Shown here: in pieces, positions 4,484 through 55,482 of the stretch
Layout of the letters: each line of letters opens with the position of its first letter
Numbering within the stretch: position 1 is the first letter of the stretch
Assembly (NCBI GenBank): GCA_964016885.1
Contig: OZ024751.1
Coordinates: forward strand, 26,350,001-26,414,000
Length of the DNA stretch: 64,000 nucleotides
Reading direction: 5' to 3'
Source: Eledone cirrhosa
Lineage: Eukaryota
Translations under genes and position numbers: made by a program
The notes under the pieces: model-generated
What the model was told of the DNA's origin: nothing
Database searches by the model: none
The model's input: the letters and a program-made list of their open reading frames with translations, nothing else

Positions 4484-7400
4484 CTTGTCCATCTCGACCT
4501 ACAAACACAATTAGGAACCTGTGAGAGTGACCTGTTAGAAATAGCAGCCAAATCTCCTTCCTTCATATCACACACTAGTGTCTTATATATATATATATAT
4601 ATAATATATACATATATATATATAATATATACATATATATATATATATGAAACCATGAGAGAGGCCTCTATATGGTAGTTAAATCTGTTAGAAATAGCAG
4701 CCAAATCTCCCTGAAATCACCCCTTATTGTCTTATCTATGTATGAGGGTGGGCTAAAAAATTCATAGGCTGACTATGAAGGAGTGATGCTAAAGCTGTGA
4801 AATCTTGCATGCATTAATTTCAACTCATCCTATTAATAACTGCATTGTTTTGTTCCAGGTAAACTGATATCTGACTGTTCAAAGAAGACTTTAAAAGTAA
4901 CTAGTAAATAGACAAAATTTGGCATTGTGGTGTTATCACCAGCAGAAAAAGGGGTTAACCCCAAAGGACATTGATGCTGACATGGTTACAACATTAAGGG
5001 GTGACACTCCAGCTTCATCAACAGTGCAAAAGTTGACAGTTGAATTTAGGAAGGTTTCTACTTGGTGGGTGCCACGTCTTCTGACATCTAATTAAAAGCA
5101 CACCAGGTTGATCACATCAAGGGAAAATCTGACATTGTTTGAGGCAGATCCAGCTGGTTTCCTTGAACATTTCCTAACCCAGAATGAGTGTTGGAGTCAT
5201 CACTTTGAGCCAGGGACAATACAAAACACCCCACCTCACCTGCTCCAAAGAAGGCCAAGGTCATTTCATCTGCAGGGAAGATGATGGCCTCAGTTTTGGG
5301 AATGCAAAAGGCATTGTGTTCATTGACATTCTTCAACCTAGGCCAGCATAGAAAATGATGATGAATACTCAAAGCTAGATCAGATAGTATCCTGTCCAAC
5401 TCTAAGAATTACATCGATTCACTGCTCCTGGAATGGAAGTTTATTTTCTTGATCCCAAAAGGATAAAAGACAAAGTTGACCATGATTGGGATTTGAACTC
5501 AGGTATTTAATCAGATCCTCTAATGACTCAGCCAATTTGCTACCTTCTTCTTCACCTATTTATTCCTGAGGGGGTCATGGGAGCAGAGACCTCAAACAGT
5601 CCTTCCAGCAGGTCCTGTCAGAAGCAACCATCTCCATCTGGTCCAGCTGGATCTCCAAGCGTGACCAGCCAAGCTCATGGATGTTATCCAACCATCTTGC
5701 TCAGGGTCTACCTCTGGGTCTCCTACCTGTTGGATTTGCCTGTAAGATCTGCCCAGTGATTCTTTCCTGAGACATTCTATCCCCGTACCCATAGTATCGG
5801 GGCTGTGATCTCTCAATTCAGAGAAGTAGCAGCTCTACCTCGAGTGACTCTCTCATCTCTCATCTATACACTTTATTGAGCAATGTTACTCCAAAGAATT
5901 TGCTACCTACGTTTATAAAATGAGGTAAAAACATAACCAACACTCACTTATCAGCCATGCAGACATCCTTGATCTGTGCTGTCACAGGTTCAAATATGTT
6001 GGGAGGCAGTGCCAGGTAGAAGATACGGTTACATTTTCCTTTTGATTCTAACAAAGTGTTTAATTTTTGGAAATCTTCCTTGCTGTCGTAGTTCCCAGAC
6101 ATGTACTCATTGATCTTGAAGAAATCTTGCAGGAGATCCATCTCGGTACTCTTCACCTGTGCAAGAAAAATATTTTTTAAATCACAGCTTATTCATCATC
6201 ATCATCATCATCGTTTAACGTCCATCTTCCACGCTAGCATGGGTTAGATGGTTTTGTTCCATTTGGTGGTGGCTTCTGGGATGTGTGATTGTGGGGGGGG
6301 GGGGGGGGATACCGTCCCAATAGGAGTAACAAGAACTGCCAGAGAGGACTGGTCCGGGGTTGTAGTAGTAGTATGCCAGTGGATTGGCAGAATTGGTAGA
6401 GTGTCGGGCAACATGCTTTGTGGCATATTGTGTTTACACACCCCTCCTGCTGCTGCAGCCCAATCCCTCCCCTACTCACTACACCCAACCCTTCCTCCCC
6501 CCAATGCCATCCCTCCCCTACTCACTACACCCAACCTTTCCTCCCCCCCAATGCCATCCCTCTCCTACTCACTACACCCAGCTCTTCCTCCCCTACTCAC
6601 TACACCCAACCCTTCCTCCCCCCAATGCCATCCCTCCCCTACTCACTACACCCAACCCTGCACCAGAACATTAATGGCAAGGATCTCTCCAGTTTCAGGG
6701 GTGAGGGGCTGTCAAGTCATGGGCACTGTCCCTTCCCCCAAAAAGTTGTTAAATTCCACTAAACTGGGGGAGAAAAAAGGGAAAGGAGGAAATGAAGTGG
6801 AGGGGAAGGGAGGTGACAAAAAACAACAGAAGACTAAACAACAACAACAACACTTACCTTCATATAGGGCTGTACCTTCTTGAAAATCTCAGACATTTCT
6901 AATTTACTGCGAGAAAAGCCAACAAAATATGTTTGAGGTGGCAGCAACTGATCCCTGAAGAGACACCTGTTGACAGGAACATGTAGAAACATCTAATGAG
7001 AAATATGTTTTGTCTATATCATGTATGTATAATTAAATTCTCATTCCTCAGACCCTTGTAATGACTATTCCATGTTGCCTTGGCATCAGTGTCAGCAAGC
7101 GTACCATTGTTATCCCAGACTTCTTCCCACAACATCACTATTTTCCCTGACACACTGCCTCGCGATCCTGAACACCTCACCTCTTCGTCATATGTATGTG
7201 GGTGTTGTGCGAGTGTGTGTGATCTGTGTTTGTGTATATGTGTGTGCGGTCTGTGTTTGTATATGTGTGTGCATGTGCATTGACAGGAATATACAGAAGT
7301 GGTAAGGATTAGAGAATAGATTTAACTATCTGTCATACATGTTTAATTAAACCAGGAGTTTGTAAAGGAGACCGATGAAGCTATTCATAGGACCTGTAAT

Positions 7401-8707
7401 GCTGTTTTCTCTTCTAAAGCTGGGAAAATGGACTTCAAACATTTGTAGTTGTGTTGATATATATGTTTTAATTAAATCGTCTGTGTATCAACTAAAAGAT
7501 TTCATACGAGGAAGGACATCCAGCTGCAAAACACTGTCTCAAAAAGAAACCCCTGATGTGTATAAAGCCTGTAACGGAGTCGATAAGGCTAACTCCTTTA
7601 AATTTCTCCTCCTCCCCTTATTCCTGGGAGGGTCATGGGGGTGGAGTCCTCAAACACTCCATCCAGTAGGTCCTGTCAGAAGCAACCGTTTCCATCTGAT
7701 CTGGCTGGATCCATAAACGAGACCAGCTGAGCTCAAAGATGTTATCCAACGATTTTGCTAGGACCCCTGGGGTCGCCTGCTCGTTGGTTTTGCTTGTAAA
7801 ATCTATCCAGCGATTCTTTCCTGAGACATTCTAATTATATGTCATTAAATTTAATTAAGATAAAATATGTTTGATGTAGCAGTAACTGGTTCTTGAAATC
7901 CCTATTAACAGGAATGTAAGGAAATGGTGATAACTAAAGAACACCTGGCCTTGAGGGGGTCAAGTCTTTTGTTTGAGGATTCCTTCCACCCAGCAGCCAC
8001 AGAATAGGTGATGGGAAAATAAGAAAAGATAAAATATGCTTCAGGTGGTAATAAACTGGTCCCTAATGAGACACCAGCTTCAGGTGATAATAAACTGGTC
8101 CCTAGAGACCAGCTTCAGATGATAATAAACTGGTCCCTAATGGGACACCAGCTTCAGGTGATAATAAACTGGACCCTAGAGAGACACCAGTTGAAAGAGT
8201 TTAGAAACAGGTGAAAAATAAAGATTTGATGTGAACAGGTGATGTAGGTTTAACTAAATGACAGGTGTTCCATAATTGTTTCTACTTTAGGCACAAGGCC
8301 AGCAAGTTACCCAGTGCATTACTGGTACTTTATTTTATCAACCCCGTAAGAATGAATGGCAAAGTTAACCTCGGCGGGATATGAACTCAGAACATAAAGA
8401 GCCATAACTCTATGCTGCAAAGCATGGTATCTGATGCTCTGCCGATCCTGCCAATCCACTCCCCTCACAATTTTAATAATGAGAAACTTATATGACTAAA
8501 TCCCTTCAGATTCTCAATTATTTGAAAGATTATATAAAAAGATCATAGAGTATTTTTCATTATATGGTAATATAAGAATATAATTCTTCTGGGGTAAATA
8601 GATACAAAGTAACATACTTACCATAGTGTTGGGTAAATCTTCTTTCTTGCCAAATCTCCCTGAAAGTAAATGAGAAAGTTTTACACGAAATTGGTCAGAA
8701 TTTAGTT

Positions 8708-8752
<45 letters not shown>

Positions 8753-9973
8753 AGCAAAGGGATATTTAATTTGGTGGTAATTCAACAAATATATATATTT
8801 ATAACTGATTAGAAGAACTCTACAGATTTTCTGGAGTATAATATCAATGATATTAATAAATGGAAACTATATTTATAGAACCATATTTATTCTATTATAT
8901 ATATTTCAAGGGTACCAAAACTTTGGTACACACTCATCAGATAAAATATAAAGTTTGTTATATAAATATTGACATATCCAGGAATGAGACCTTAACGGTT
9001 CCAGTTTTACCTGGATAGTATCAGAGGGTGCTCTGAAAGTGTAGTAGCCAGAGTTAGAACGGGATGGAAAAAGTTCAGAGAACTAATACCACTGTTGGTC
9101 ACAAGGGGTTTTTCTCTAAAAGTGAAAGTCAGATTGTATGATGCTTGTATACGAACGGCAATATTACATGGTAGTGAGACCAGGGCGTTGTGTGCTGAAG
9201 ACTTGCGTAGATTAGAAAGAAATGAAGGTTGCATGCTCTGATGGATGTGTAATAGTAATGTATAAAAAAAGTGCAGAGCAATGAAAATTGATGGAAGCTA
9301 CAAAGTGGGTAGACCCTGAAAAACCTAGGACGAGATGATAAAAACTGACCTTGCTCACTTACACCTCTTTAAGACACCGACACTGGATCGCTATGCAGTT
9401 ATACTGAAAACCTGCCTTCCCTTACATACAAACTTAAACCTACAGTCAGTAGGCACCTCTTAACCCAATATACACCCCACTCCACAACCTCCTACTCCAT
9501 CCTCCCATTTCCGTCCACTGTAAAGTGGTCGTGTAGGTGACATGTCAAAATGCACCCAGTCCACGCTGTAAAGTGGTCGTGTAGGTGACATGTCAAAATG
9601 CACCCAGTCCACGCTGTAAAGTGGTCGTGTAGGTGACATGTCAAAATGCACCCAGTCCACACTGTAAGGTGGTCGTGTAGATGACACGGTAAAAAGACTC
9701 CCAGTCCACACTGTAAGGTGGTCGTGTAGGTGACATGTCAAAATGCACCCAGTCCACACTGTAAGGTGGTCGTGTAGGTGACACGGTAAAAAGACTACCA
9801 GTCCACACTGTAAATGTGGTTGGTGTTAGGAAGGGCATCCAGCCGTAGAAAACCTGCCAGAACAGTTCTGTACAAGCGAGACACGGTCTCCCGACCAATC
9901 TTGCCTCAAGTGGGACAAAACCGTTCAACCCATGCTAGCGTTGAAGATGGACGTTAAACAATGAGATATATAC

Positions 9974-10037
<64 letters not shown>

Positions 10038-10103
10038 ACAGGAGATCCCCATACAGGCAATATTAGAATGCTGATGAAGTGCGTATACATTTTTGGGGAC
10101 ACC

Positions 10104-10154
<51 letters not shown>

Positions 10155-10321
10155 CACTATTGGTCATATATCCGAGATGGTAGTGTTGCTACACACATAT
10201 ATAAATATATAGTATTGGTCATATATATGGGACAGTGGTACCGCTACACACAGACACACACCACACTATATATAGTATTGGTCATATATCTGGGAGCGAT
10301 GGTGGTGCTGCTACACACAGA

Positions 10322-10378
<57 letters not shown>

Positions 10379-13300
10379 TCACCCACACACATGCTTACAG
10401 TATAGGTCACATATCTAGAGCAGCATTACTGCTACTCAAACATCTCACACACTACACCTCTCCTCACACACACACTACACCTCAACTCACACACACACAC
10501 ACTAGACATTACACCTCACCTCCCACACTACACCTCACACACACTACACCTCACACACACTACATCTCACATGCTACAACTCCAAATATTCACCATTCAA
10601 TAGTCTCCTCCTTTTTCTACTACAACCACTACTACAACAGCCTCTGCTCTTCTCATTCAGCAGCTTATTTCACAATTTAATGAAGTTCCAAGATTATGTC
10701 ATAGACAGACACCAATCCATTTCCTTAGTCTGTTCCTTTATTAACCTTGAAAAGATGGTAAAGTTGACCTTAGCAGGATTTGAACTGAGAACACGGAGAG
10801 CTAAACCACATCCTGCAAGGGATTCTATCAGAGTTTCTAATGACCTGACTACCCAGTCACCTCCCTCTCTAACCAACCACTTTACATATATATAAACTTG
10901 TCAAATCGGACCAAGGAAACAATGTTTCCATTGGTCTTTCCGTTGCTGATACTATCTACCAGTCGCAACACCTGGCAGAAAGAGTAATGTGAAATAAAGT
11001 CTCTTGCTCAAGGACATAATGCATCACCCAGACCAGAAATTACATTTGCAACCTCATGATTGCAAATGTAATTCTCTAATCACTAAGCCACACACCTTGA
11101 GAGAGAGGGGGAGAGAGGGAGAGAGAGAGGGAGTGAGTGAGTAAGCATGACTATAGTTTGCTATTTGACCTTTCTTCATTCATTCCTTAGCAAAGGGTAG
11201 GGACGCGGGGGGGGGGGGGGGGGGGGGGGCAGAAATTGTGGCAACACAAAAATGAGTTACTCAAGTTTCTATCCAAAGGTCAGGGTGTGTTCATATCCGA
11301 GTGTGGTTATGTGTATAAGTGGATATGTGTGTGTATGCCATTGTGTGTGTGTGTGTGTGTATGTGTGTGTGTGTCTGGTTATACATGTGTGTGAGTATTG
11401 TGTCTGTGTGTGCGTGTCTATGCATATCACTGACAACTGCATGTGTGGATCATGTGTGCCAACAGGTCAACAGTGTCTATTAATTCTTAATGTCTTAAAC
11501 ACCAACTAAGACCTACCTTACACATTAAGATCTATCTTAAACTGCAACTAAGACCTAGCTAAAACACCAATTAACACCTACCTTAAACTGCAACTATGAC
11601 CCACTAAGACCTATCTTCAACAAAGACCCATCTTAAACTCCAACAAAGACCCATCTTATTGCCTCACAAGGTACTCTATGATGGTTATAAAATGTGTCAT
11701 GATACTCTCAAGCCTAATCTCTGCTTTAGCTGGGAAAAATATCCTTAACTGGATTTTGTGACCATATTTCAATTAATTGATAAAAAAGTTTTAGGGATTT
11801 ACTAAAATTATTTATTTTATTATGCTGTGAGATTTTAATTTATATAGGAAGCCTTTAAAACGGGTGCCTTTGTTTCATAGAACCAGAGTCAGTTTTAAGT
11901 AGTATCACTAGGGTTAAAATACAAGTTGTTGTTCAACGAGGTACTTCACTGCGAGTTTGAATTCAGGACCTGCTGCTACTGCTGAGAAAGATACTTCATT
12001 GTGAGTGACTCAAGACCTGTGTTGTTGTTAAGAGAGATACTTCACTGAGTTTAAACTCAATACATTTAACGACTGAACCATATCAGTAATTATTGATCTG
12101 AGGCATAATCAATAATTAAAATATACAAATAACAACAAAGATACTATGACTCGTTAAGACTGAGTATCCACTGAGGACTAATCTATATTTACATGATGTT
12201 TTTTAATTAGTGATGATGGCTTTTGGGACAAATTAAGCGTTTTTACTTTCAACTGTTACGAAGCAACATATAGAAGTTATACTGGTTTCTTAGATCAGGT
12301 CAAAGTGGGGAGTAGGGTAAGGTGTGGGTGGTGGAGTGTGGAGTATGGTGGGATGGGGTGGTGGGTGTGGGGTAAAGGGTGTGGTGTGTGATAATTGGTG
12401 TGGTGTATTGATGGTGGTGGTGGGTGGTGTGTGGTAATTGGTGTAGTGGTGTGGTGATGAGATAAAGGGTGGTGTGTGGTAAATGGTGTGGAGTAGAGGC
12501 GGTGTGGTGTAGAGGTGGTGGTGGTGGGTGGTGTGGTGTAGTGGTGAACCTGAAGCCATATAGTTGAGAAAGGAATTTCTTAAAATAGAGTAGTGATAGA
12601 GTATAGATAGAGTATAGATAGAGTAGAGATAGAGTATAGATAGAGTAGAGATAGAGTAGAGATAGAGTAGAGATAGTAGAGATAGTAGAGCTAGGATATA
12701 GACAGAATATACATACAATAAAGATACAACACAAATATAATATAAATACAACTGTGATAGAATATAGATATAATATATGTACCCATAACTCTTGATAGAG
12801 TCACAGGTGTGCCATAGTGACATAAAGTGTGTTTTGGGTATTTTATACCCAGTGAATCCCATCTGTTCTCCATGACTGAGCACAAGTGATTTCTGAGAGA
12901 GAGAGAGGAAGAATCAACCCCAGTACTTGACTGGTACTTTTTTATCAACGTTGAAAGGATGAAAGGTAAAGTTGACCTGGGTGAGATTTGAACTGAGAGA
13001 GAGCAGGGTTTCAGCCCGACATTGTGAGGTGAACAGCTCTGACAGAGATTATAATAGAAATATCATGTTACATCCTTTAAAACCTCCATGCTTCCCGAAA
13101 TTCGCCAACACTACACCTAATGTTCCCCCTCCACACACATACACACATGTATATCATGACTCATACACTATTCACTTCCCTGACATTTGTATATTATTCT
13201 ATGTACTATACATGCACGTTTGATGAGTTGTAGTGCACCTGAGCACTTTACACAATAATTTCATTATTATTATTTTTTTTTATTACATAAGTCTTAACAT

Positions 13301-16300
13301 TTTGGCATGATTTAGCAGAAATTATCTGAAAACTGGTTATAATATGTTTACTGAAGGATTGATATGAACATTAGCAGTAAATAAAAGTCTAGTATTGTTG
13401 GTGGTGATGATGGTGGTAGTGGTGGAGGTGGTGGTGGTGGTGCTAGTGGTTGTTGTGGTGGTGGTGGTAGTAGAGTGGTATTTTGGGTTTCCTAACTTGT
13501 CTTACAAGTCTGGCAACAACAAAGATTCTCTCTAACACAGAAGAATTCCCATTCTAGAAACATAACAGTGTTTAAGTTTCAGTTGACAACTTTCCTGCCA
13601 CTAGAGGGCAGACCAAAACAGATTGTCATTGGACCTCCGCAGTTGACTGTTGAACTTTCTTGCTACTAGGAGGTATACCATGATGGTGGTGGTGGTGGTG
13701 GTGGTGGTGGTAATGGTAGTGGTGGGGTGGTGGTGGTGATAGTGGTGATGATGGAGATGGTGGTGATAGTGGTGGTGGTAGTGATAGTGGTGGGGTGGTG
13801 GTAGTGATGATAGTGGTGATGGTGATGATGGTGGTAGTGGTGGTGGTCGTGATAGTGGTGGTGATGATGATGGAGATGGTGGTGGTAGTGGTGGTGGTAG
13901 TGGTGGTAGTGATAGAGGTGGTAGTGATAGTGGCGGTGGTGATGATGGAGATGGTGGTGATAGTGGTGGTGGTGATGATGGAGATGGTGGTGGTAGTGGT
14001 GGTGGTAGTGATAGTGGGGGGGGGGGGTAGTGGTGGTGGTAGTGATAGGGGGGGGGGGGTAGTGGTGGTGATGGTGATGATGGTGGTAGTGGTGGTGGTA
14101 GTGATAGTGATAGTGGTGGTGGTAGTGGTGGTAGTGGTAGTAGTGATAGTGGTGGTGATGAAGGTGGTGGTGGTTGTGGTGGTGATGATGATGGTGATGT
14201 ATGAAGAAAGCTGAACTAATTAATTTAATTGATTGCATATAATCAATGTACAGGTGTGTATCCACCTGTACACACCTGTGAACACCAGGTAATCCAACAT
14301 CTAGATGAGTTGTGAGTCGATGTAATCATCAATTTTATGCCCATCCTTCCATGATTCTGTGGATTATGTCGGAATAAATGATAGGATATAGGTTTGGTAG
14401 ATCAGAGCTGGCCTAGGGCTAAACAGTATCAGACAGACACATTAGATAATGTAGTCCTAGATACACTATGTCTGAATAAAAGACAAGTTAGAGTTCAAAC
14501 GTCTTTGATCATCCATCTGATGGATCAGGTCAGACCTGGGGCTTAACAACAACAAGGAAGGGCACATTAGATAATGTAGTCCTAGATACACTATGTCTGA
14601 ATAAAACCATTATTTGTATAAGGATGAGAAAGCAGGAAGTGAAAACAAGTGAAAAATCAGGATTAAGAAACACTAACAGGACGTAATGTCAACCAATGAA
14701 ATTAGTGTTTCCTGGTGTAAAACTCTCACAACTTGATGATGGATGAGCAGATGAGATGACCAGAGGAGATTGTGGACGACCAGATGAGATTGTGGACGAC
14801 CAGATGAGATGACCAGAGGAGATTGTGGATGACCAGATGAGATTGTGGACGACCAGATGAGATGACCAGAGGAGATTGTGGACAACCAGATGAGATGACC
14901 AGATGAGATTGTGGACGACGAGATGATGAATAACCAAGCAAGACAGTGAACCACCAGATGTCACTCTTGATATGGCTGTAGGATATTAATCCCTTTTGTC
15001 AACGTATTTCTAATAAAATAAGCTTTTTCAATTAATGAAGAATTTTGAAGGATTTACTAAAATTATTAATTATTTCATTATTAAGAGAGTAACTTAACAT
15101 GGTCCTGATATATTAAAATCTTTCAAGATAATTTTATAAATAGGAACCCTTTAAAATGGGTGTGTTTTTTTGTTTCATAGAATCAAAAGATGATTTAGTC
15201 TAAGTTGGCATCAAAAGGATTAAGGAATCTGACTTGCTTCAAGTACTAATTCTTTTATTCTGTGATTTCTCTATCAGATCTACAAAACCTCAGTTTTACA
15301 TATATGGTGCATTGTAAATGCTGTATGTAAAATGGAAGTGTGATTTATACAAGTGTGTAAAGTGTTGTGTAAGCAACACAACAAAAAATACACAGCTGTA
15401 AATGTGGTTGGCGTCCAGCCATAGAAACGAAGCCAAATCAGTTCTGTGCGAGGGAATCACGGACCCCAACTTGATCTCTAACAAAGGGACAGCCCATCCT
15501 ACCCATTCTAGCGTGGAAGAAGGACATTAAATGATGATGATGATGATGATATACATATCACCATCATCATCGTTTAACATCCATCTTCCACGCTAGCATG
15601 GGTTAGACGGTTTTGTTCTATTTGATGCGGAATTGGTCGGGAGACCGTGTCTCGCTCAGACGGAAGTGTATATATATATATTTTTATATATAGTATGCCC
15701 ACAGTACTGGTACCATTACAAAAAGCACTCAGTCGACACTGTAAGGTGACAGTACTGGTACCACTACAAAAAGCACTCAGTCCACCCTATAAGGTGACAG
15801 TACTGGTACCACTATAAAAAGCACTCAGTCCACCCTGTAAGGTGACAGTACTGGTACCACTACAAAAAGCACTCAGTCCACCCTATAAGGTGACAGTACT
15901 GGTACCACTACAAAAAGCACTCAGTCCACCCTGTAAGGTGACAGTACTGGTACCACTATAAAAAGCACTCAGTCCACACTGTAAGGTGACAGTACTGGTA
16001 CCACTATAAAAAGCACTCAGTCCACACTGTAAGGTGACAGTACTGGTACCACTATAAAAAGCACTCAGTCCACACTGTAAGGTGACAGTACTGGTACCAC
16101 TATAAAAAGCACTCAGTCCACCCTGTAAGGTGACAGTACTGGTCTGTCACCAGTTGTCCGTCTGTCTCCTGATGTCCTAGAGACAAGATTTAAGTAGATT
16201 AGAGTCTCTGGGATTAGAGGCTCACATGACAAATGTCTCCTTGTGTTCACTGTCTCCTATCTTATATCTGGGACAACCAAGTATATGTGTGTGTGAGTGT

Positions 16301-16578
16301 GCATGTTTGTGTGAGAGTATGTATATGTGAGTGTGTGGGAGAGTGTGTGTGTGTGTATGTGTCTGTGTGTGTGTGAGAGTGAGAGTATGTATATATGTGT
16401 ATGTGTGTGTATATGTGTGTGAGAGTATGTATTTATGTGTGAGTGTGTATATGTATGTATGTGTGTGTGTGTGTGAGAGTGAGAGTATGTATATGTGTGT
16501 GTGTGTGTGTAAGTGTGTATATGTCTGTGTGTGTGAGAGTGTAAATGTTTGTGTCTGAATATATATATGTGTGAGAGA

Positions 16579-16635
<57 letters not shown>

Positions 16636-17119
16636 AGAGTATATATATATATGTGTGTGTCTGTGTGAATACACAAACACACACACACCTACACACATTC
16701 ATCCTCATAATAAATTTGTCCCACTTTCATGATATAATGAAATACCAACAATTATTTCATGCAATGCTCCACTAATTCTTTCTATAAACCACCCCATCTT
16801 CAACCTCATCACATGTCAACTATATTGTTCTAACCCTTTACATAAGGAGTTCAAATCCTAGTGAGAGTCCGAGCTGATAAATACCATTCATATATAGGGG
16901 TTTACTTGATAGACCTATGTGTGTGTGTGTATGTGTGTGTATATATATATAGAGATAGATAATGAAGGAGGTGTAGTAAGGAACCAGATGGACCATAACG
17001 CACCAGAAATAGCTGTCAAAACGGCTTGAGCTCTGCCGTCGGGATCAAACATTTTCCTATGTAGATAGATAGAGAGAGAGAGAGAGATGTTCATAGCAAG
17101 GAAGATCAACTTTGTTTAC

Positions 17120-17177
<58 letters not shown>

Positions 17178-18443
17178 AAACCTACTCCAGCCAGTAGGCA
17201 TCTCTAACAAAATACACCCCGTCCCACCACCCCCACCCCCACCCGATCCACACCACCCCGTTCTATGTAAAGTTATGTTGGTGCCGCGCCATCGAGGCCG
17301 AAACAAATGAGATCGTGTAGGTGTCACGACAAAAAAACACACAGTCCACGCTGTAATGTGGCCGTGTAGGCAACACGGTAAAAACCTCCCAGACCCACAC
17401 TGTAAATGTGGTTGGTGTTAGGAAGGGCATCCAACTGTAGAAAACCTGCCAGACAGTCCTATGCGAGCAAGACAATCACTCTTGCCTCAAGTGGGACTAC
17501 CCCCGTCCAAACCATGCAAGCGTGGAACACGGACGTTAAACGTTGATGATGATGATGATGATGATGATACACACACACACAGATGTGATCATAATATGTA
17601 AGGTCTCCTTTGTTTCCAACTATTCAAGTGTCTAAATATGTTTCTACATGTCCTGTCTGTGATAGATTATCTATACTCAATAAAATATTGATGAGAGTGG
17701 TGGTGGTGGTGTAATGGTGATGGTGGTGGTGGTGATGGTGGTAGGCATGGTGTGGTGGTGGAGTAATGGCGTGGTGTGCTGTATGTGGTGGCATTGTTGT
17801 TGATGTTGTTGGTGGTGGTATGGTGTAATGGTGTGATATGGTGGTATGGTGATATGGTGTAGTGGTGAGGTGTGGTGTGGTGTGGTGTATGCAGTGGTGG
17901 TGTAGTAGTGTGGTGGTATGGTGGAGTGATGTGGTGTGCTGTAAGCAGTAGTGGTGTAGATGTCAACACCTGACCATAAAATCTACAATAAACAACAGTT
18001 GTTTGTGTCACAAAGCAGGCCCCATTGAATTATGGGTACACTCCATCGAATGGACTTCTAAACAGTTTCTGTCTACCAAATGTCATACTCTGCTTAGGTG
18101 AAGCCAGGCTGTGGCAAATGACCCTTTCCCAAGAGACATATAATGGGATTGAACCCAGGACCTTAGGATTGTGAAGTATCTTTCTTAAACTCTAATATTG
18201 AAAGAGGGTTTTATGTGGAAAAAAAACCAGTCAGACAATAACCTTAATGAATACTCAATACATAGGAGCAGAGGATATGGTTTATTTTTCTAAGATAAAA
18301 AAAAAATGATAGTGACTTCGAAGTTTTGGCTTCATCAGCCTCAAATTAACAAAAGTTTAAAATATAAATTTTATAGAATATTTACTAACATTAATTTCCA
18401 AGAAAAGAAAGGACATTTTTCTTTTTATGTTAGTGTTTGTACC

Positions 18444-18487
<44 letters not shown>

Positions 18488-20237
18488 AATACCCAGTTAC
18501 ACATTGTAGAGCTAGCCTAAGGTGTTAGATACTGAGGTACACATTGTAGAGCTAGCCTAGGGTGTTAGATACTGAGGTACACATTGTAGAGCTAGCCTAG
18601 GGTGTTAGATACTGAGGTACACATTGTAGAGCTAGCCTAAGGTGTTAGATACTGAGGTACACATTGTAGAGCTAGCCTAGGGTGTTAGATACTGAGGTAC
18701 ACATTGTAGAGCTAGCCTAGGGTGTTAGATACTGAGGTATACATTGTAGAGCTAGCCTAGGGTGTTAGATACTGAGGTACACATTGTAGAGCTAGCCTAG
18801 GGTGTTAGATACTGAGGTACACATTGTAGAGCTAGCCTAGGGTGTTAGATACTGAGGTACACATTGTAGAGCTAGCCTAGGGTGTTAGATACTGAGGTAC
18901 ACATTGTAGAGCTAGCCTAGGGTGTTAGATACTGAGGTACACATTGTAGAGCTAGCCTAGGGTGTTAGATACTGAGGTATACATTGTAGAGCTAGCCTAG
19001 GGTGTTAGATACTGAGGTACACATTGTAGAGCTAGCCTAGGGTGTTAGATACTGAGGTATACATTGTAGAGCTAGCCTAGGGTGTTAGATACTGAGGTAC
19101 ACATTGTAGAGCTAGCCTAGGGTGTTAGATACTGAGGTATACATTGTAGAGCTAGCCTAGGGTGTTAGATACTGAGGTACACATTGTAGAGCTAGCCTAG
19201 GGTGTTAGATACTGAGGTATACATTGTAGAGCTAGCCTAGGGTGTTAGATACTGAGGTACACATTGTAGAGCTAGCCTAGGGTGTTAGATACCCAGGTAC
19301 GCATTATAGAACTAGCTCGGAGCACTAAATACCCAGCCACAAATTGTGGAACTAGCTCAGAGCACTAAATTCTCAGGTACATACTGTAGAGCTGGCGTGT
19401 CTCACCTCAACCCTGTCGAGGATCACAGGTCATAAGTTGTTCAGTGTTAAAGTATTTTCTGGCCGTGAAGAGAAGGGAAAGTCGTTGTGTAGTCCTAGCT
19501 ATGCTGAAAAATGTGTTCTAAATGAGAGAACATCTTTAAGAGGTGTAGTCGATACAATCGGCCATAATATAGTAGTCATTTACATTAGGACAACCACATT
19601 TCAAACAATAAATATAATTTAAATAACTCGGACTTCACGGTAAATAAATAAAATACAACCCACTCCCAAAATTGACAGCATTGTAGCCAGAGTGTCATTC
19701 AATGACACACACAAATATATATACTTAGACACACGGAGACATACACACAGACACACGGAGACATACACAGACACACGGAGACATACACATAGACACACGG
19801 AGACATACACACAGAGACATACACACGGAGACATACACAGACACACACAGACACACGGAGAGACAGAGAGGCATAGACACATACATAACAGAAACATATA
19901 TATATATACACACACATACATACATAGATAGATACAGTCATACATAGACAAGGGAGGCATAAACACACACAAATAACAGAAACATATATATATGTAGTTT
20001 TTCCAAATTGAAGGATGAGTATTTAAACTTTATTTTATTCCGAGTTAAGACTATTGGGTTTTTTTTCCCTGGATTTCACAAAATCTGGATAAAATCTCTG
20101 TCTTGATTTTTTTTTTTAACTGAGTTTGAATTATTTTCCCACATCTTACGTTAATTATTTTTCCATTTTGACTTTATAGTCACTTATATATTATGAAATA
20201 CTGTTGGCTTCTTGCTCACATTAATTTCTATATTTTC

Positions 20238-20287
<50 letters not shown>

Positions 20288-20841
20288 TTGTCATGCTATC
20301 GAATTCTGTTTACAAACGTGTAAGCGTGGAAGTAGAAAATTATCAGCTGACACACACACGAAGCCGACGAGAGCACTGTAATCAAACGAAACCGGTGAAT
20401 TGAACAAGATATGGTCATTCTCTCCACAGATCTATTTGCCATAATACTCATGTGTACAGACAGGAGGAAACCAATAAACCAGAAATTGTAGCAACACTCT
20501 TAGTAACTCGTAACACCATCAATGACTCAATTTTCACCTCTATTTGCAAAATTGATTACTAAATACTTGAATACGTCAAACTGTTTGTATATATATATAT
20601 ATATATATAATGTAGGAGGTGAGTTTTATTGTAGTACAATAAAGCAATGCAGATATCGGATAAGAAGCACTCTACAGTTTGTAGGACTGTTGATTTAAAA
20701 CTGAACTATCCACAAGTGTTTTTAAACCTTCCTATCATGTCTTCCTGTTTTATCTGATGAAAACACAAATATTATTGCATGATATTTGTTTTTGAAATGC
20801 GCATAATAAAATACATGGAACTCTTTTAACCATCTTTTGTT

Positions 20842-20890
<49 letters not shown>

Positions 20891-21571
20891 CAATGATATT
20901 AATAAATGGAAACTATATTTATAAAACCATATTTATTTTATTATATATATTTCAAGGGTACCAACATTTTGGTATGCCCTCATCAGATAAAATACTAAAT
21001 TTGTTTTATAAATAGTGAGATATCCAGGAAACCAGACCTTATCGGTTCAGGTTCAGTAAATATATATTTATATATATAAATATATATTTATATATATTTA
21101 CTGAACCTGAACCGATAAGGTCTGGTTTCCTGGATATCTCACTATTTATATATATACACACACACACACATACATATATACACACATATATATACATATA
21201 TACACACACATACATATATACACACATATACATATATACACACATACACATATACACACATACATATATACACACATACATATATACACACATACACATA
21301 TACACACATACACATATACACACATACATATATACACACATACATATATACACACATACATATATACACACATACATATATACACACATACATATACACA
21401 CATATATATACACACATATATACACACACACATACATACATATACACATATATATATACATATATACACACACACATACATATATACACACACATACATA
21501 TATATATATATACACACACATATATATATATATATTTACATACACACTCACACACATATATATATTTACAT

Positions 21572-21614
<43 letters not shown>

Positions 21615-21988
21615 CACTAACACATATATATATACATACATATATACAAGACTTTGACAGGTTTCGGTCAGTATTGGCCCGGGCCATGTATAATAGTAAA
21701 CTACATTAGAAAACGAAGTTCTTTCGTTTAAATCATGCGTGTGTGTGTGTGTTTGGGGGGGGGGTATATCTGTCTACAACAACACATATTACATATATTG
21801 TTGTCTTCAACAAACAAACATGCCAGACGAGAGAGAGAGAGAGAGAGAGAGATAAGGTGGTGAGGGATTGGGTGAATCTGTTTGGCATGGGTTTAGGATT
21901 ATGAGGGCCCACGTCAACTCCTGGTTATTGTATTCAATTCTATTATTTGTTAAGTACATTATGTAAACCCCTCCACACACACACACAC

Positions 21989-22033
<45 letters not shown>

Positions 22034-22340
22034 AAAGAAAATAACGAATAAAAATTAGAGAGTTAGAAAGAAAAAGGAAAAAAAATGAATTACACACTCC
22101 AGCAAAGAATGTTGATATTGTCTTTTTAAAATATTTGAGGCAAGCCAAAACCCCACGGTATTACCGCGAGTGATAGCGATGCTAAGGCACTGGAATAGCT
22201 AAGCACTCTCATGAACGTTTGAAATAGTTGTGTATGTGTGATGAGGGGCTACATTTTATCTGTGATAAAGAAGCTTAATTAGAGTAGGATGGTGTACGTT
22301 TTATTGCATCTGGCTTGAGCCTTATCTTTAACTTTACAAG

Positions 22341-22372
<32 letters not shown>

Positions 22373-22659
22373 GCGGTGCTGAGACTGAAGTGACTACTAA
22401 TCATTGGAGCACTCAATGCATGGGAAGCACACACACATATATATATGTGTGTGTCATGGGCGTTTATTTTATATAAGAGACAGACAGGCAGACGAAGAGA
22501 GAGAGAGAGAGTGTGGATACTTACAGAGGCCCCAAGAATCACGAAGGCATGAATACAATCTGTATCAGTGGAAGCATGAACGGCTCCAAGAAACTTTTCG
22601 TAATATTCGGAAACGGTGGCGTGGGATGAAGGGGTTTCATCTCCATCTGGCTTTTGCAT
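618..22659 (-). CDS. G6PD: Glucose-6-phosphate dehydrogenase, multi-exon; 433 codons in window, 3' exons lie left of position 1
   Basis: Coding exons 22525-22659, 8622-8659, 6858-6966, 5948-6156, 4337-4498, 4088-4213, 2501-2594, 2282-2408, 1097-1186, 618-826 are all GT-AG and join in one frame (1299 nt). Motifs: GASGDLA (NADP), [14 protein letters not shown] (catalytic), [34 protein letters not shown]. Confidence 0.97.
1097..1186 (-). CDS. G6PD: G6PD coding exon 9 ([29 protein letters not shown])
   Basis: atag| ... G|gtaagc. Confidence 0.95.
2282..2408 (-). CDS. G6PD: G6PD coding exon 8 (VNVLKCI...[10 protein letters not shown]...[10 protein letters not shown])
   Basis: taacag| ... A|gtaagt, phase 1. 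Confidence 0.93.
2501..2594 (-). CDS. G6PD: G6PD coding exon 7 ([19 protein letters not shown]...RNEK), 94 nt
   Basis: tttcag| ... AAG|gtattt. Confidence 0.95.
2650..3230 (+). mobile_element. 3' fragment of an RLE-type non-LTR retrotransposon (HERO/R2-like)
   Basis: ORF 2871..3140 LRLDIIL...[23 protein letters not shown]...VKVGVRGF matches the restriction-like endonuclease PD-(D/E)xK region with KxxKY. Confidence 0.75.
4088..4213 (-). CDS. G6PD: G6PD coding exon 6 ([11 protein letters not shown]...[20 protein letters not shown]), 126 nt
   Basis: tttctag| ... AG|gtttgt; read manually, not in the ORF track. Confidence 0.95.
4337..4498 (-). CDS. G6PD: G6PD coding exon 5 ([13 protein letters not shown]...[14 protein letters not shown])
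   Basis: G6PD active-site signature; gtag| acceptor, |gtaaat donor. Confidence 0.97.
4741..5335 (+). mobile_element. Degenerate mariner transposon fragment
   Basis: TIR-like TATGAGGGTGGGCTAAAAAATTCATAG; frameshifted transposase text including WVPRLLT (WVPHEL-like) and [17 protein letters not shown]. Confidence 0.75.
5948..6156 (-). CDS. G6PD: G6PD coding exon 4 (VKSTE...[10 protein letters not shown]...MADK)
   Basis: ORF 5944..6156; cag| acceptor, |gtgagt donor. Confidence 0.95.
6858..6966 (-). CDS. G6PD: G6PD coding exon 3 ([22 protein letters not shown]...YMK), 109 nt
   Basis: caacag| ... AAG|gtaagt; frame-consistent. Confidence 0.95.
8622..8659 (-). CDS. G6PD: G6PD coding exon 2 ([13 protein letters not shown]), 38 nt
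   Basis: ctttcag|GGA...CTATG|gtaagt. Confidence 0.95.
8888..8948 (-). ncRNA. Minimal type I hammerhead ribozyme motif, paralogous to 20934-20994
   Basis: Minus strand reads TATTTTAT-CTGATGA-gtgtgtaccaaagttttggtaccctt-GAA-ATATATAT-A-ATAGAATA; flanks 8843-9004 match 20889-21050. Confidence 0.65.
9010..9340 (+). mobile_element. RTE-like LINE 3' fragment; related pieces at 42180-42580 (minus) and 33785-34130 (plus)
   Basis: [37 protein letters not shown]-type RT thumb text. Confidence 0.7.
13596..13613 (+). promoter_or_regulatory. CTCF consensus match
   Basis: TGCCACTAGAGGGCAGAC fits the CCASYAGRKGGCRS core; binding untested. Confidence 0.45.
13680..14200. repeat. (GGT/GAT/AGT)n low-complexity tract; many other (TA)n, (CA)n and (GA)n tracts, e.g. 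16280-16660, 19700-19930, 21150-21645
   Basis: Directly visible simple repeats. Confidence 0.95.
15701..16143. repeat. Minisatellite, 48 bp x 9+, derived from a SINE segment
   Basis: ACAGTACTGGTACCACTAYAAAAAGCACTCAGTCCACMCTGTAAGGTG. Confidence 0.95.
18501..19300. repeat. Minisatellite, 40 bp x 20
   Basis: ACATTGTAGAGCTAGCCTAGGGTGTTAGATACTGAGGTAC, near-identical units. Confidence 0.97.
20746..20813 (+). ncRNA. Minimal type I hammerhead ribozyme motif (Penelope-like element relic)
   Basis: Stem I TGTTTTAT/ATAAAATA; core CTGATGA 20754-20760; stem II with 13 of 14 pairs; GAA; palindromic stem III ATGCGCAT; predicted cleavage after A20805. Confidence 0.8.
20934..20994 (-). ncRNA. Minimal type I hammerhead ribozyme motif, imperfect stem II
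   Basis: Minus strand reads TATTTTAT-CTGATGA-gggcataccaaaatgttggtaccctt-GAA-ATATATAT-A-ATAAAATA. Confidence 0.7.
22525..22659 (-). CDS. G6PD: G6PD coding exon 1 (MQKPDG...FVILGAS)
   Basis: ATG at 22659 with an in-frame TAA two codons upstream; donor GTAAGT at 22524; acceptor TTCTCCAG ending at 22680 implies an upstream non-coding exon. Confidence 0.9.
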
Positions 22660-24316
22660 GGTTTAGGATTTGGTTGGTACTGGAGAATGTAAGATGTAAA
22701 ACTTTATAGGTAAAGTAAAAAAGAAAGGCTATGTAACAACGACAGTGTACAGCACTGTATGTTATATATATAAGTGTGTTATAGGATAGAAATGCTGTTT
22801 AAATGTGCGCTAATAATATAAGTGGAAGAGGGAGAGGGCGGAAATAAGAGGAGGGACCGTTGTGAGAAGAAATTGTGTTAAATGAGAGAGAGGGAAGAGA
22901 GAATAGTTTATATAAGTAGATGGGTGAAGGGGAGGAAAGAGGTAGTAATAAAACTAGAAGAAGGATTGAGAGAAAGAGATAACTAGATAGATAGATACGA
23001 AGGAAGAGATAAAGAGAAAGAAATATAGTAGGCTAGAGAGGAAAGCAAGGTGCGATGTAAGAATGAAAGAGAGAAAAACAAAAGTAATGTGTGAATGAGA
23101 GACAGAGTGCGACGAAATGGCGGGTTCAGTTGAGCGGAGAAAAATGTCTCGTGGTTTACATGTGGTTGCGTTCTGAGTTCAAATCCCACCGAGGTTTTAA
23201 CTCATTCTTTCGGGAGTCAAAACTGAAAAAAAGGTTTGACAAGATTGTTAGAGCGCCTTGTGACATTTAATCCAGCACTTTTTATTCTGGCAGTCCTAGA
23301 CATTGAATGTCTTTAACAGAGTCCACTCTGTTTCAAGCATTCGTGCCAGGTCTGTGAAAGAGAAGGGAGAGAGAGAATGAGGGAGGGAGAGATAGAGAGA
23401 GAGAAATATAGAGAAGTGTATATGGTGAGAGAGAGGGAGAGATAGAGAAGTTTACATGGTGAGGGAGGGAGAGATAGAGAGAGAGAAATATAGAGATGTG
23501 TATATGGAGAGAGATAGAGAAGTTTACATGGTGAGAGAGGGAGGGAGGGAGAGACAGAGAGACATTGATGTTTACTCAGAGAAAGAAAATATGTAGAGTT
23601 GTTTACATTCTTTAGGGATTAGTCATGGGGGCAGCACCCACTGACCCTTTATTTATTTATTTATTAGTGACTCCAAGACTGTTGAGAGTAAATAAGGAAG
23701 GAACGTTCAGACCTGATTAGAATGTTTGCAACATGGTGGTGGTGCTGGCGGTGATGATGATGGTGGTGTTGGTGGTGATGATGATAGTGCTGATGATCAT
23801 GGTGGTGGTGTGGTGGTGGTAAACTTGTCACTGACTGATAGAAGAGAGGAGGGGGGAGAGGAGAAGACTAGAGAGAGAGAACAGCAAATATGTTGTTTAT
23901 CTCCAGCTCTACTCTGATCCAGCACACCTATAATCAAAGGCATTCCAACACCAGTCGTGACCATCACGTCAGAGTTATCTACTGGACGACATTATCTTAA
24001 TCCCGCCGAAGTTAACTTTGCCTTTCATCCTCACGGGGTCGATGAAATAAAGTACCAGTAATGCACTGGTTAATTGCTGGCCTTGTGCCAAAAGTAGAAA
24101 CAATTATCTCATATATATACCTCCCCTCTCTCTCATGTCAAGGAGGGATTTGAAAGAAATGGTGCTATTGTTTTTAGCAAACAGGTCAAGTGAACCGACG
24201 AATGCATTGAGTGAATGTCTTTAAAAAAAGGCATTAGATGATTCAGTCGTGGCATAGGGTAATCATTAAATAAAGCGGCGTAATTAAAAATGGAACATGC
24301 AGAAATGGTGAACGTA

Positions 24317-24366
<50 letters not shown>

Positions 24367-24880
24367 ACAAAATTCTAACATAGTTGATATGTTTTGATTC
24401 ATTATTTGAATATATGTATGTGTGTTTTCCCAAATAAACAGCAATATCTCTCCTTTGTTTTTTGTACATAAGCGTGAATTTTTTTAAACCCTCTCCATTT
24501 CTTTTGTTACTATATAAAAGTGCATCTTTACATATATATTTGCATTTGAAAGCATAAAAAGTTTCACTTTGCGAAACATTTCAAATGATATTTCAGTTTC
24601 AATTTATTAAAGATCAAAATTTCATTACAAATATAAACATTTATATACAAAAATGTAGTGAGGTGGGATTTTAAAAATCCAGAAAAATGAAACTTATTCG
24701 TTTCGGTGATTCACAAAAGCTAAATTGTTGATTTTTGTTTTTCTATATATTTTCTTCATTTTGCTGGTTTCATTTTTATTTACGCCGCTTTTCTTCACTT
24801 TTGCCCTCTGTGATTATGTATTGTCTTTTTCCTACATCTATTTTATACCGATAAACAATGATTAGAAAAAAACATAACTG

Positions 24881-25516
24881 GGCACTACTATGGTATTAGC
24901 TGTCAGAAGTGAAAGTTTCGACAACCTTCTCAATCGTAAACATTGTTTATTTCCGTATTACCACGCGTTATTTTAATAAAGCATATCGATGTAAGTGGAG
25001 TTACTTAAATGAAAATATAGGTGGCTCTTAAAAGGGCCAAATTAGAAAACAAATTTAAGTTAATTAGAAAACAAGTCATGGTTATCAAATAAATTGGATT
25101 TAATCATTTATATTTTCAGTCATGGTTATAAATTTCATGTATAGAGTTGGTGAAAAAAATTTGATAACCATATATTTGTTTTCTAATTTGGCCCTTTTAA
25201 GGGCCACCTATATTTTCATTTAAGTTAACTCCACTGTTGGTGAAAATGACTTGTTTTCTACATTGATAACCATGACTATGAAAATATAAATGATTAAATC
25301 CAATTTATTTGATAACCATGACTTGTTTTCTAATTAACTTAAATTTGTTTTCTAATTTGGCCCTTTTAAGGGCCACCTATATTTTCATTTAAGTAACTCC
25401 ACTTACATCGATATGCTTTATTAAAATAACGCGTGGTAATACGGAAATAAACAATGTTTACGATTGAGAAGGTTGACGAAACTTTCACTTCTGACAGCTA
25501 ATAGCATGGTAGTGCC
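24881..25516. mobile_element. Long-TIR MITE, probably Merlin superfamily
   Basis: Near-perfect inverted arms of about 250 bp, GGCACTAC...GTAGTGCC; 8-bp TSD CATAACTG (24873-24880, 25517-25524); internal sub-repeats. Confidence 0.85.
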
Positions 25517-26351
25517 CATAACTGCTTCAAAGTCGCACATTTCTTGCTTGATAATAGATAATTGGTTTGGTGTTCCATTTTATCGATCCCTAGAACAATA
25601 AAAGACAAAGTAAAACCCTTGGGGAATTTGAAATCAGGACATAAAGAGATGAACGGCACACGCGAATGATTTTATTAACCAGTCAATTACCACTACTATC
25701 ACCATCCATGTGTAATGGATAATTTATAATGAAGATACATATATAAATGAGATAATTATATATGTATTTATGTAGCTAAACTGTATGTGTACCCTCCACA
25801 ATATTGAAATGATATGGGTGAGTAAGGGCTGATGTATCACCGGTAACGGAAAAGGAACGAAACGAGACAAGTCAGCTGCAGACAAGCGAGATATATATAT
25901 ATATATTTATATGTCATATATTCATATAAAAATAAAGCGAAAGAAAGATATATATTCATGGCACACCTAGTAAAGAAAAAAGACAATATTTCTACCTTGT
26001 TTCCTTTTCTTTATTATTTCTTTGTCTAGGTGTGAACGGAAAGAAGCCAGTACGGTAATACGAACCAGTTTCCCCGGTTAAACAAACGTCCGGCCAGATA
26101 TATTGTTATTGAAAATCTCTCATATTTATAACTTTTTGTCAAGGATTTACGATTAAAAATATTCTTAAGGTTTCTTTTTTATTTATTTGTTTGTTTTTCG
26201 TATTATCATTTATTTCCTTGCTAGTCGTTTTATCTTTATGAAAGTTATTGAGGGATTAAGTTACACGTTTATAACTAACATTTACATTCATTCATAATCC
26301 TCCAAATCAACAATACGTCCATCACGAGGAGGAGTAGTAGTAGTAGTGGTG

Positions 26352-28142: not shown

Positions 28143-28391
28143 TTATATAAATCTAATATATTAATATAGCTGGTTATTTTCTCTTAACTTTCCCGCGAAG
28201 CTATCACGAACATTTCCGAGTGACGAGAATGGCGAGCATTAACGGAAACAGAGAAAGAAAAAAAAAAAAAAGAATTATTTGTTTAACAATAGTTTTGTGT
28301 TAAATATGTTGATATATTTACAAAATTTACGAAAAAAATAGTTTTATATAGATAAATAAAAACAAATAATTTATATTTAAGCATATTTCCC

Positions 28392-54940: not shown

Positions 54941-55482
54941 GGCATAGGTAAAATATAACGTTCGAGAAAGTGAAACTAATTTTTATGACAAGTGAATGTG
55001 TTTGTTTTTTAGTATTGCGTGTGTGATTATTTTTCTTTTTCTTTTTTTTGTGTATTGTGTGTACGGAAAATTAGACGTACCTTATCAACATCCTTATTAG
55101 ACCGTATACATAGCTGAAATACAGTTGATCATCTCGCCAACCTAATGTGCACACACAACTCATAGAGAACACTTGGAGCCGTGCGAAGAAAAAGCTCCGT
55201 CGACAACATGGGACAAGCGACGATTTATTCCCCTCGTATTTAGCTGAATTTCTTTGGCGGCAGAGAGTTGGTGCCAACACATTTGGCGAGATGATCAACT
55301 GTGTTTCAGCTATTTATACGGTCTAATAAGGATGTTGATAAGGTACGTCTAATTTTCCGTACACACAATACACAAAAAAATAAAAAGAAAAAATAATCAC
55401 ACACGCAATACTAAAAAACAAACACATTCACTTGTCATAAAAATTAGTTTCACTTTCTCGAACGTTATATTTTACCTATGCC
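54941..55482 (+). mobile_element. Merlin (IS1016/IS1595-like) non-autonomous fold-back element with transposase C-terminal fragment
   Basis: Inverted arms of 200 bp (54941-55140, 55283-55482) starting GGCAT; 9-bp TSD TTCAATTAT; 55141-55326 translates PNVHTQLIENTWSRAKKKLRRQHGTSDDLFPSYLAEFLWRQR...IYTV*. Confidence 0.88.

What the first reader, a model, noticed from the sequence alone, without database searches (positions are those of the whole stretch)
8888..20994. Two sense-oriented, mutually compatible minimal hammerheads near the two ends of the 13.9-kb G6PD intron
Seen: minus-strand hammerhead motifs at 20934-20994 (about 1.5 kb from the donor) and 8888-8948 (about 230 nt from the acceptor). 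Both have the CUGAUGA/GAAA core, nearly the same stem I and the same self-complementary stem III AUAUAUAU, and both lie on the strand transcribed as G6PD pre-mRNA. Established: minimal type I hammerheads of Penelope-like elements and non-LTR retrozymes have short palindromic stem III and cleave mainly as dimers. Inference: the two copies could pair within one pre-mRNA and cut or release about 12 kb of intron, coupling a retroelement ribozyme to G6PD splicing. Caveat: both stem IIs have mismatches and a G-U closing pair, which is also what neutral decay would give.
Basis: partly seen in the sequence, partly recalled or inferred. Interest (0 to 1): 0.72.

Follow-up and report, generated by a model that had tools for sequence, protein, structure and literature searches.

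The report
Two transposon ends in G6PD intron
The two hammerhead-ribozyme motifs in this G6PD intron are real, but they are leftover ends of a very common jumping gene (a Penelope-like element, likely of the Hydra group) with over 40,000 similar motifs in the genome; both are predicted to misfold and likely landed in the same intron by chance rather than acting together on splicing.

Summary
Both motifs are present as described, on the sense strand of the 13,865-nt G6PD intron. They are not a matched pair. Each is a cut-off pseudo-LTR of a Hydra-type Penelope-like retroelement, and the two are 89% identical over 161 nt, flanks included. One 27-nt piece of the ribozyme occurs exactly 42,135 times in the genome, so the shared stems I and III are simply inherited. 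Same-strand pairs 5-13.9 kb apart are common (16 of the first 100 matches have such a partner). The fold is supported across families, and the G-U closing pair is the family state, not decay. Both G6PD copies carry stem II changes predicted to pull G8/A9 out of the catalytic core. A 1.7-kb spliced contig joins exons 1-2-3 normally. The scan already found this element class on other DNA. One side result: a single stem II adenosine is replaced in 35% of this family's copies, against 3% at a nearby A and 1% at the same position in a sister family. It often differs between the two arms of one insertion, which may record an RNA modification misread by the element's reverse transcriptase.

The parts
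22525..22659 (-). G6PD first coding exon (ATG at 22659; ends ...VILGAS, GT donor at 22524)
   Evidence: joined to exon 2 in a contig of run X4
8660..22524 (-). G6PD intron holding both motifs, 13,865 nt, GT-AG
8622..8659 (-). G6PD second coding exon ([12 protein letters not shown], then split W codon), 38 nt
8744..9018 (-). Copy 1: solo pseudo-LTR with its 3' extension, ending in a (TA)/(TG)n tract; its 5' end abuts an RTE-like LINE fragment
   Evidence: 92% over 277 nt to the pLTR of the long element in L063; boundaries shared with other copies
8888..8948 (-). Hammerhead motif 1: core starts 8940; 10.2 = U (8932) and 10.4 = U (8930) differ from the family majority; predicted cut 8896/8895
20886..21060 (-). 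Copy 2: solo pseudo-LTR of a different subfamily, without the 3' extension, ending in a 43-nt (AT)n tract
20934..20994 (-). Hammerhead motif 2: core starts 20986; 10.2 = G (20978) and 10.5 = A (20975) differ from the family majority; predicted cut 20942/20941
21007..21150 (.). 144-nt palindrome made by a short inverted, truncated pLTR arm (about 21097-21156, no hammerhead) at the 5' side of copy 2; typical Penelope-like insertion shape
8996..9238 (+). Fragment of an abundant RTE-like LINE next to copy 1 (family label from recalled peptide resemblance; no Pfam hit)

Best explanation
The two motifs are truncated pseudo-LTR ends of a Penelope-like retroelement family, likely of the Hydra clade, that likely inserted independently at TA repeats in a long G6PD intron and are predicted to be catalytically silent there. 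[quoted passage not shown] Inferred: in the active element the ribozyme would cut tandem precursor RNA as a dimer through the AUAUAUAU palindrome. After insertion the copies would decay neutrally. In both G6PD copies a change at position 10.2 would shift stem II by two bases so that G8 and A9 pair. The palindrome would be taken up by a local hairpin or by nearby (AU)n tracts long before a partner 12 kb away is transcribed.
For: Repeat nature. Long copies with RT motifs, CxCx5C linker, GIY-YIG and the layout inverted pLTR + pLTR-ORF-pLTR. Hydra features. Copy number 42,135, one per 71 kb, and 27 of 30 sampled have CUGANGA upstream. Chance: 9 same-strand pairs 5-13.9 kb apart among the first 100 matches; Poisson P(>=2 on one strand in 13,865 nt) = 0.0045, about 960 of 216,072 genome tiles per strand. 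Different subfamilies. Misfolding: probability of the catalytic stem II register 0.03 and 0.00, against 0.57 for the commonest form; 86 and 106 of 116 motifs score higher. Heterodimer double hammerhead -17.2 kcal/mol, against -28.7 for the best co-fold and -24.9 for the two monomer ensembles. Neutral decay: 12 of 508 core letters changed against 23 of 1,136 flank letters, p = 0.71, 47 copies. Relative's run X5 has summed depth 3-113 over the pLTR, where X1 has 26,000-1,800,000, while neighbouring repeats are of like depth. Spliced contig.
Against: Both copies keep all core nucleotides and are on the sense strand. Two in one intron is a 0.45% event for a given intron of this length (not rare genome-wide). 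Folding models omit the tertiary energy of the hammerhead core, so low activity is a prediction. A spliced contig shows presence only and cannot exclude partial cleavage. The orthologous intron of a relative was not seen (laid no X5 contig on exon 2). Covariation controls were mixed: cells changed on both sides 19 against 6.9 shuffled (0 of 500), but pairs with such a change 3 against 3.1 (377 of 500). Pfam and PDB sequence searches did not recognise the element's protein; its identity rests on motifs.
Confidence: 0.9

Rival explanations
1. One reading: the two copies pair across 12 kb in the nascent RNA, cut, and release intron RNA in a way that tunes G6PD splicing.
For: Sense orientation, intact cores, and a drawable double hammerhead with 8+8+8 intermolecular pairs. 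Penelope-type minimal hammerheads cut only as dimers or trimers, weakly (PMC4209133, parts 1-2 of 4 read). An intronic ribozyme that affects its host gene has precedent (CPEB3, PMC10919898, search listing only).
Against: Any two of more than 40,000 copies are compatible. Both stem IIs are predicted to misfold, and the heterodimer frame is 11.5 kcal/mol above the best co-fold. In local context cis stem I is <=0.01 and the palindrome is mostly already paired. The intron holds 38 (AT)n tracts of 8 nt or more, two of them the palindromes themselves. The dimers shown to work are adjacent repeats of about 330-350 nt (PMC7229834, passages).
Confidence: 0.03
2. One copy cleaves weakly alone or with any other pLTR RNA in trans, as harmless background, and splicing proceeds regardless.
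For: Cores intact; the 3' half is shared by tens of thousands of copies; pLTR-like contigs are laid from run X4, which holds spliced G6PD.
Against: Monomer A15.1-U16.1 pair probability is 0.002. A single minimal motif showed no cleavage in vitro. Both copies rank in the lower quarter for the catalytic register.
Confidence: 0.05
3. Copy 1 matters as DNA, not as a ribozyme: its pLTR acts as an internal promoter or splice signal just upstream of exon 2.
For: It is sense-oriented and ends about 85 nt before the acceptor; Penelope pLTRs hold the start site and promoter; many copies begin at the same ACTATCCAG point.
Against: No X4 contig covers 8660-8697, and the one contig on exon 2 joins it to exon 1; contigs cannot show absence.
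Confidence: 0.02

Closest known systems
Hydra clade of EN+ Penelope-like elements (Craig et al. 2021, PMC8557442 / bioRxiv 2021.04.23.441226; passages and supplement rows read), including Hydra-1_Obim of Octopus bimaculoides
   Same: RT followed by C-terminal GIY-YIG, DKT motif, CxCx5C linker, no Cys pair between the GIY and YIG boxes, (TA)n targets, sense hammerhead in the pLTR, inverted 5'-truncated arms and a one-sided tail. U before GAAA is common in the published Hydra hammerheads, with G-U closing in Penelope-13_HM and Penelope-17_HM.
   Different: A different family from Hydra-1_Obim: other hammerhead sequence and only moderate protein likeness by eye. It is 3.7-3.8 kb, with about 1.1 kb of AT-rich 3' sequence, against 'generally <3 kb'. 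Stem III is an all-A-U 8-nt palindrome and stem II has a conserved C-C mismatch.
Minimal hammerheads of metazoan PLEs (Cervera and De la Pena 2014, PMC4209133; parts 1-2 of 4 read)
   Same: Type I, short palindromic helix III, long helix II, mostly scattered as single motifs or close inverted pairs from truncated elements; dimer-dependent, low activity.
   Different: Closing pair R10.1-U11.1 instead of G10.1-C11.1; stem I is 8 pairs, longer than the 4-5 described there.
Non-LTR retrozymes (PMC7229834, passages; bioRxiv 10.64898/2026.07.22.740005, abstract and part 1 of 2 of Results)
   Same: Type I hammerheads related to pLTRs; in Xenopus over 40% of copies overlap introns, so an intronic place is ordinary.
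   Different: No tandem 170-400-nt units here; the two copies are dispersed, 12 kb apart and from different subfamilies.
Host-adopted intronic ribozymes (CPEB3 HDV-like, PMC10919898, listing only; amniote intronic hammerheads, recalled)
   Same: Self-cleaving motif in an intron on the sense strand.
   Different: Those are single-copy and conserved across species (recalled); these belong to a lineage-restricted high-copy family whose copies decay neutrally.

Membership tests
Penelope-like element (EN+) | Single ORF with RT and C-terminal GIY-YIG endonuclease | tested here: met
   RT motifs (D..YYSSI, TMGS.DS, YRDD, FLDV), then IYKC..YIG, R..NH in long copies L061-L065. Read by motif; all copies seen are broken; no Pfam or PDB hit.
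Penelope-like element (EN+) | Pseudo-LTRs, inverted 5'-truncated arm, one-sided tail | tested here: met
   L063 = inverted pLTR + pLTR-ORF-pLTR; window copy 1 has the extension, copy 2 an inverted arm.
Penelope-like element (EN+) | Hammerhead in the pLTR, sense to the ORF | tested here: met
   Motif on the ORF strand in 11 of 20 loci fetched by upstream sequence; 1 locus had it only on the other strand and 8 had no intact motif.
Hydra clade | DKT in place of DKG | tested here: met
   KSDKTNNLY in L063; DETNN and DKVNN in the decayed L062 and L061.
Hydra clade | CxCx5C linker | tested here: met
   CNCRIESNC in L061, L063, L064.
Hydra clade | CCHH finger absent from the endonuclease | tested here: met
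   Only one Cys between the IY and YIG boxes (definition).
Hydra clade | Insertion into (TA)n | tested here: met
   Most copies end in (TA)n; both window copies do.
Hydra clade | Generally shorter than 3 kb (descriptive, not diagnostic) | tested here: not met
   About 3.7-3.8 kb in L062 and L063.
Hydra clade | Placement in an RT phylogeny | not tested
   No reference proteins were held as tool sequences; compared by eye only.
Type I hammerhead | Core CUGANGA / GAAA / UH with three helices | tested here: met
   stem II pairs change on both sides across families, controls mixed.
Type I hammerhead | G10.1-C11.1 closing pair | tested here: not met
   U11.1 in 4,511 against C in 15 exact matches; U11.1 is common in published Hydra motifs.
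Type I hammerhead | Self-cleavage | not testable with these tools
   Folding predicts a non-catalytic register for both copies.
Non-LTR retrozyme | Tandem 170-400-nt units each with a hammerhead | tested here: not met
   No such array in 5800-23000; copies are dispersed.
Host-adopted intronic ribozyme | Orthologous conservation across species | tested here: inconclusive
   The family is almost absent from the run of organism B at 85% likeness, but no orthologous contig was laid on exon 2.

The most novel reading that the evidence does not exclude
The genome holds a fossil record of an RNA modification that disarms a transposon's own ribozyme. In this family the stem II adenosine 10.2 is replaced in 1,043 of 2,962 copies (35%; G 50, T 38, C 12 of the first 100), against 3% at a nearby A and 1 of 100 at the same position in a sister family. 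It differs between the two arms of single inverted insertions in 8 of 20 pairs. In the alternative fold this A faces a C. A modified base there (inosine or N1-methyladenosine), misread by the Penelope-like reverse transcriptase on each pass, would give this pattern and leave copies, the two in G6PD included, locked in a non-cutting fold.
Probability: 0.25. Interest if true: 0.62.

Novelty: new member of a known kind. Interest (0 to 1): 0.2.

Why it matters
As a G6PD regulatory device it very likely does not matter: it is the expected by-product of a retroelement that scatters a hammerhead every 71 kb or less. It is a useful negative, because hundreds to thousands of such same-strand 'compatible pairs' must exist in this genome. 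The side result could matter more. A site-specific, family-specific hypervariable adenosine in a transposon ribozyme gives a cheap handle on how Penelope-like RNAs are modified and copied, and on why their hammerheads vary so much within a genome, a puzzle raised in PMC4209133.

Tried and rejected
Rfam scan: no hammerhead model matched at E<=1. Pfam and PDB sequences did not recognise the element's ORF pieces. The look-up of sequencing runs: no RNA holder listed; X4, of unrecorded kind, held a spliced contig and is used only for presence. RAD-seq runs X6 and X7 gave no useful locus-specific cover, so no test of insertion polymorphism. Rejected: G-U closing pair as CpG decay of these copies (4,511 against 15, while the neighbouring CpG is mostly intact). 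Rejected: tandem retrozyme. Rejected as the cause of the 10.2 hotspot: selection for any non-cleaving RNA, since core positions change at the background rate; and hairpin-templated correction, since A is already the paired base. Not excluded for the hotspot: several source elements, or a DNA-level hotspot. The 16 of 32 arm discordance is inflated by how loci were picked, so the unbiased 8 of 20 is used. Two paper searches for a prior report of such a hotspot listed nothing on point, judged from listings only; the library lacks most subscription papers. The scan's index had no match by sequence, by place or for hotspot words. The bioRxiv preprint's supplements could not be seen and may list related families.

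Full report
Observation. Both motifs are in the sequence as described. Three exons hit Pfam G6PD_N or G6PD_C. Coding exon 1 ends at 22525 and exon 2 is 8659-8622, so the intron is 13,865 nt. The predicted cuts at 20942/20941 and 8896/8895 are 1,583 nt from the donor and 236 nt from the acceptor. Rfam has no matching hammerhead among its 56 weak matches.

What the motifs belong to. The likeness runs beyond the ribozyme: 89% over 161 nt. A genome search had 3,453 candidates and scored the best 40, giving 56 matches, many as back-to-back inverted pairs and ending in (TA)n. [quoted passage not shown] L063 shows the layout inverted pLTR + pLTR-ORF-pLTR. DKT, CxCx5C, the missing CCHH finger, (TA)n targets and a sense hammerhead define the Hydra clade in Craig et al. 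(passages; supplement rows). That paper lists Hydra-1_Obim from an octopus, with a different hammerhead, so this is another family. No tree was built, and Pfam and PDB gave no support. Copy 1 (8744-9018) is 92% identical to the L063 pLTR. Copy 2 (about 20886-21060, with an inverted arm forming the 21007-21150 palindrome) is of another subfamily. They are two separate insertions.

Is two in one intron special? A 27-nt pattern covering GAAA, stem III, the cut site and the 3' strand of stem I matches exactly 42,135 times, once per 71 kb, a lower bound. Of the first 30 such loci, 27 have CUGANGA upstream. Among the first 100 matches on contig C1 there are 9 same-strand pairs 5-13.9 kb apart, involving 16 copies. 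A Poisson model gives P = 0.0045 for a given 13,865-nt stretch and strand, or about 960 such stretches per strand; the sample rate extrapolates to about 3,800 pairs. What share lies in introns on the sense strand could not be counted without an annotation.

Is the ribozyme real? At family level, likely yes. I aligned 22 copies: both window copies, L004, and 19 of the 30 loci L116-L145, leaving out 9 near-duplicates and 2 truncated ones. 94% of cells pair; 10.2 switches between G-C and A-U, 10.5 between A-U and G-C and 10.6 between U-A and C-G. Cells changed on both sides are 19 against 6.9 in shuffles (0 of 500), but the pair-count measures do not beat shuffles (377 and 496 of 500), the copies are related, and the search pattern fixed the 3' strand. 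U at 11.1 is the family state (4,511 against 15) and is common in published Hydra motifs, so the G-U closing pair is not decay.

Are these two copies likely active? Both differ from the majority in the base of stem II: copy 1 at 10.2 and 10.4, copy 2 at 10.2 and 10.5. Folding predicts a two-base slip in which G8 and A9 pair with the 3' strand. The catalytic register has probability 0.03 and 0.00, against 0.57 for the commonest form; 86 and 106 of 116 distinct motifs score higher. The heterodimer double hammerhead evaluates at -17.2 kcal/mol, against -28.7 for the best co-fold and -24.9 for the two separate ensembles. In local context cis stem I is <=0.01 and the palindrome is mostly paired already. 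The intron has 36 further (AT)n tracts of 8 nt or more that could compete. These models omit tertiary energy, so the comparison between copies is the meaningful part. Published minimal PLE hammerheads gave no monomer cleavage and low dimer cleavage, and working dimers are adjacent repeats. In 47 copies picked without regard to the ribozyme, the core changes as fast as the flank (12 of 508 against 23 of 1,136, p = 0.71).

Reads. No run was on record as RNA. Run X4 holds one 1,713-nt contig (depth 268) that lies only on exon 2, with exon 1 letters on one side and exon 3 letters on the other. The intron is therefore spliced in the ordinary way; this shows presence and does not exclude some cleavage. 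In run X5, of another organism, summed depth over the pLTR is 3-113 against 26,000-1,800,000 in X1, while the neighbouring repeats are similar in both. The family thus looks lineage-restricted, which argues against an old conserved role; the orthologous intron itself was not seen.

Side result. Position 10.2 is non-A in 1,043 of 2,962 copies with exact flanks (35%), against 64 of 1,983 (3%) for an A five bases on. The first 100 variants are G 50, T 38, C 12. In a sister family with A at 10.1 (8,273 matches), 99 of the first 100 keep A at 10.2. In an unbiased list, the arms of 20 close inverted pairs differ at this site in 8, share a variant in 3 and are both A in 9; independence would give 55% discordance. 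Other sites differ between arms in 82 of 2,929 cells, and several discordant pairs share private variants. This fits a per-copy error at one base. Modified bases such as m1A and inosine leave misincorporation marks in reverse transcription (PMC12140624, passages); ADAR's liking for A-C mismatches is recalled. Against: inosine normally reads almost only as G (recalled); non-A copies fetched by the motif were more diverged than A copies (0.038 against 0.022), which could point to accumulation after insertion, though the unbiased sets were alike (0.021 against 0.019, n = 7 and 31); and multiple source elements are not excluded. Both G6PD copies carry the variant, which has a chance of about 0.12 and is not evidence of selection.

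Verdict. A real pair of motifs with an ordinary origin: neutral Hydra-type pLTR relics (0.90). Coupling to G6PD splicing is 0.03. Earlier notes of this scan reached the same class for other loci in this and other octopus genomes; I looked them up after forming my reading. The host being an octopus is taken from those notes and fits the Hydra-1_Obim link. Interest 0.2, most of it for the hypervariable adenosine.

Noticed in passing
window 8932 and 20978; genome-wide: Stem II position 10.2 of this family is replaced in 35% of copies (G>T>C), against 3% at a control A and 1 of 100 in a sister family, and often differs between arms of one insertion.
   Followed up: partly
L116-L145 and others: Several related hammerhead families (A10.1-U11.1, longer loop II, stem III AUAUGUAU) keep the C-C mismatch at 10.4 and an almost invariant 3' flank; a few have C at 11.1.
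   Followed up: partly
window 24879-25518: Inverted repeat with 240-nt arms, 98% complementary, holding histone 3' stem-loop matches at or above Rfam's gathering score (25185-25230, 25354-25398) with no histone ORF seen; likely a non-autonomous element.
   Followed up: no
window 28356-33761 (+): TAF11-like gene (Pfam TAFII28) transcribed away from G6PD, head to head.
   Followed up: partly
window 58150-59283 (-): Uninterrupted 378-aa ORF of an Hsp70-interacting protein (HipN, TPR, STI1 domains); intronless, possibly a retrocopy.
   Followed up: partly
window 9018-9010: Many copies begin sharply at ACTATCCAG followed by GTAAAA, which may mark the element's start site and a donor-like signal, as for the pLTR intron of Penelope.
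   Followed up: no
window 8660-22524: The long intron interrupts the GAS|GDLA motif at the position of the long G6PD intron in human (recalled, not tested).
   Followed up: no
window 54941-55482; 18482-19316; 62392-63395; 39407-40057: A second long inverted repeat (200-nt arms, 97%) and young minisatellite arrays of 40, 64 and 31 nt.
   Followed up: no
L018: About 22 tandem copies of a roughly 50-nt piece of the pLTR containing the 3' half of the hammerhead.
   Followed up: no
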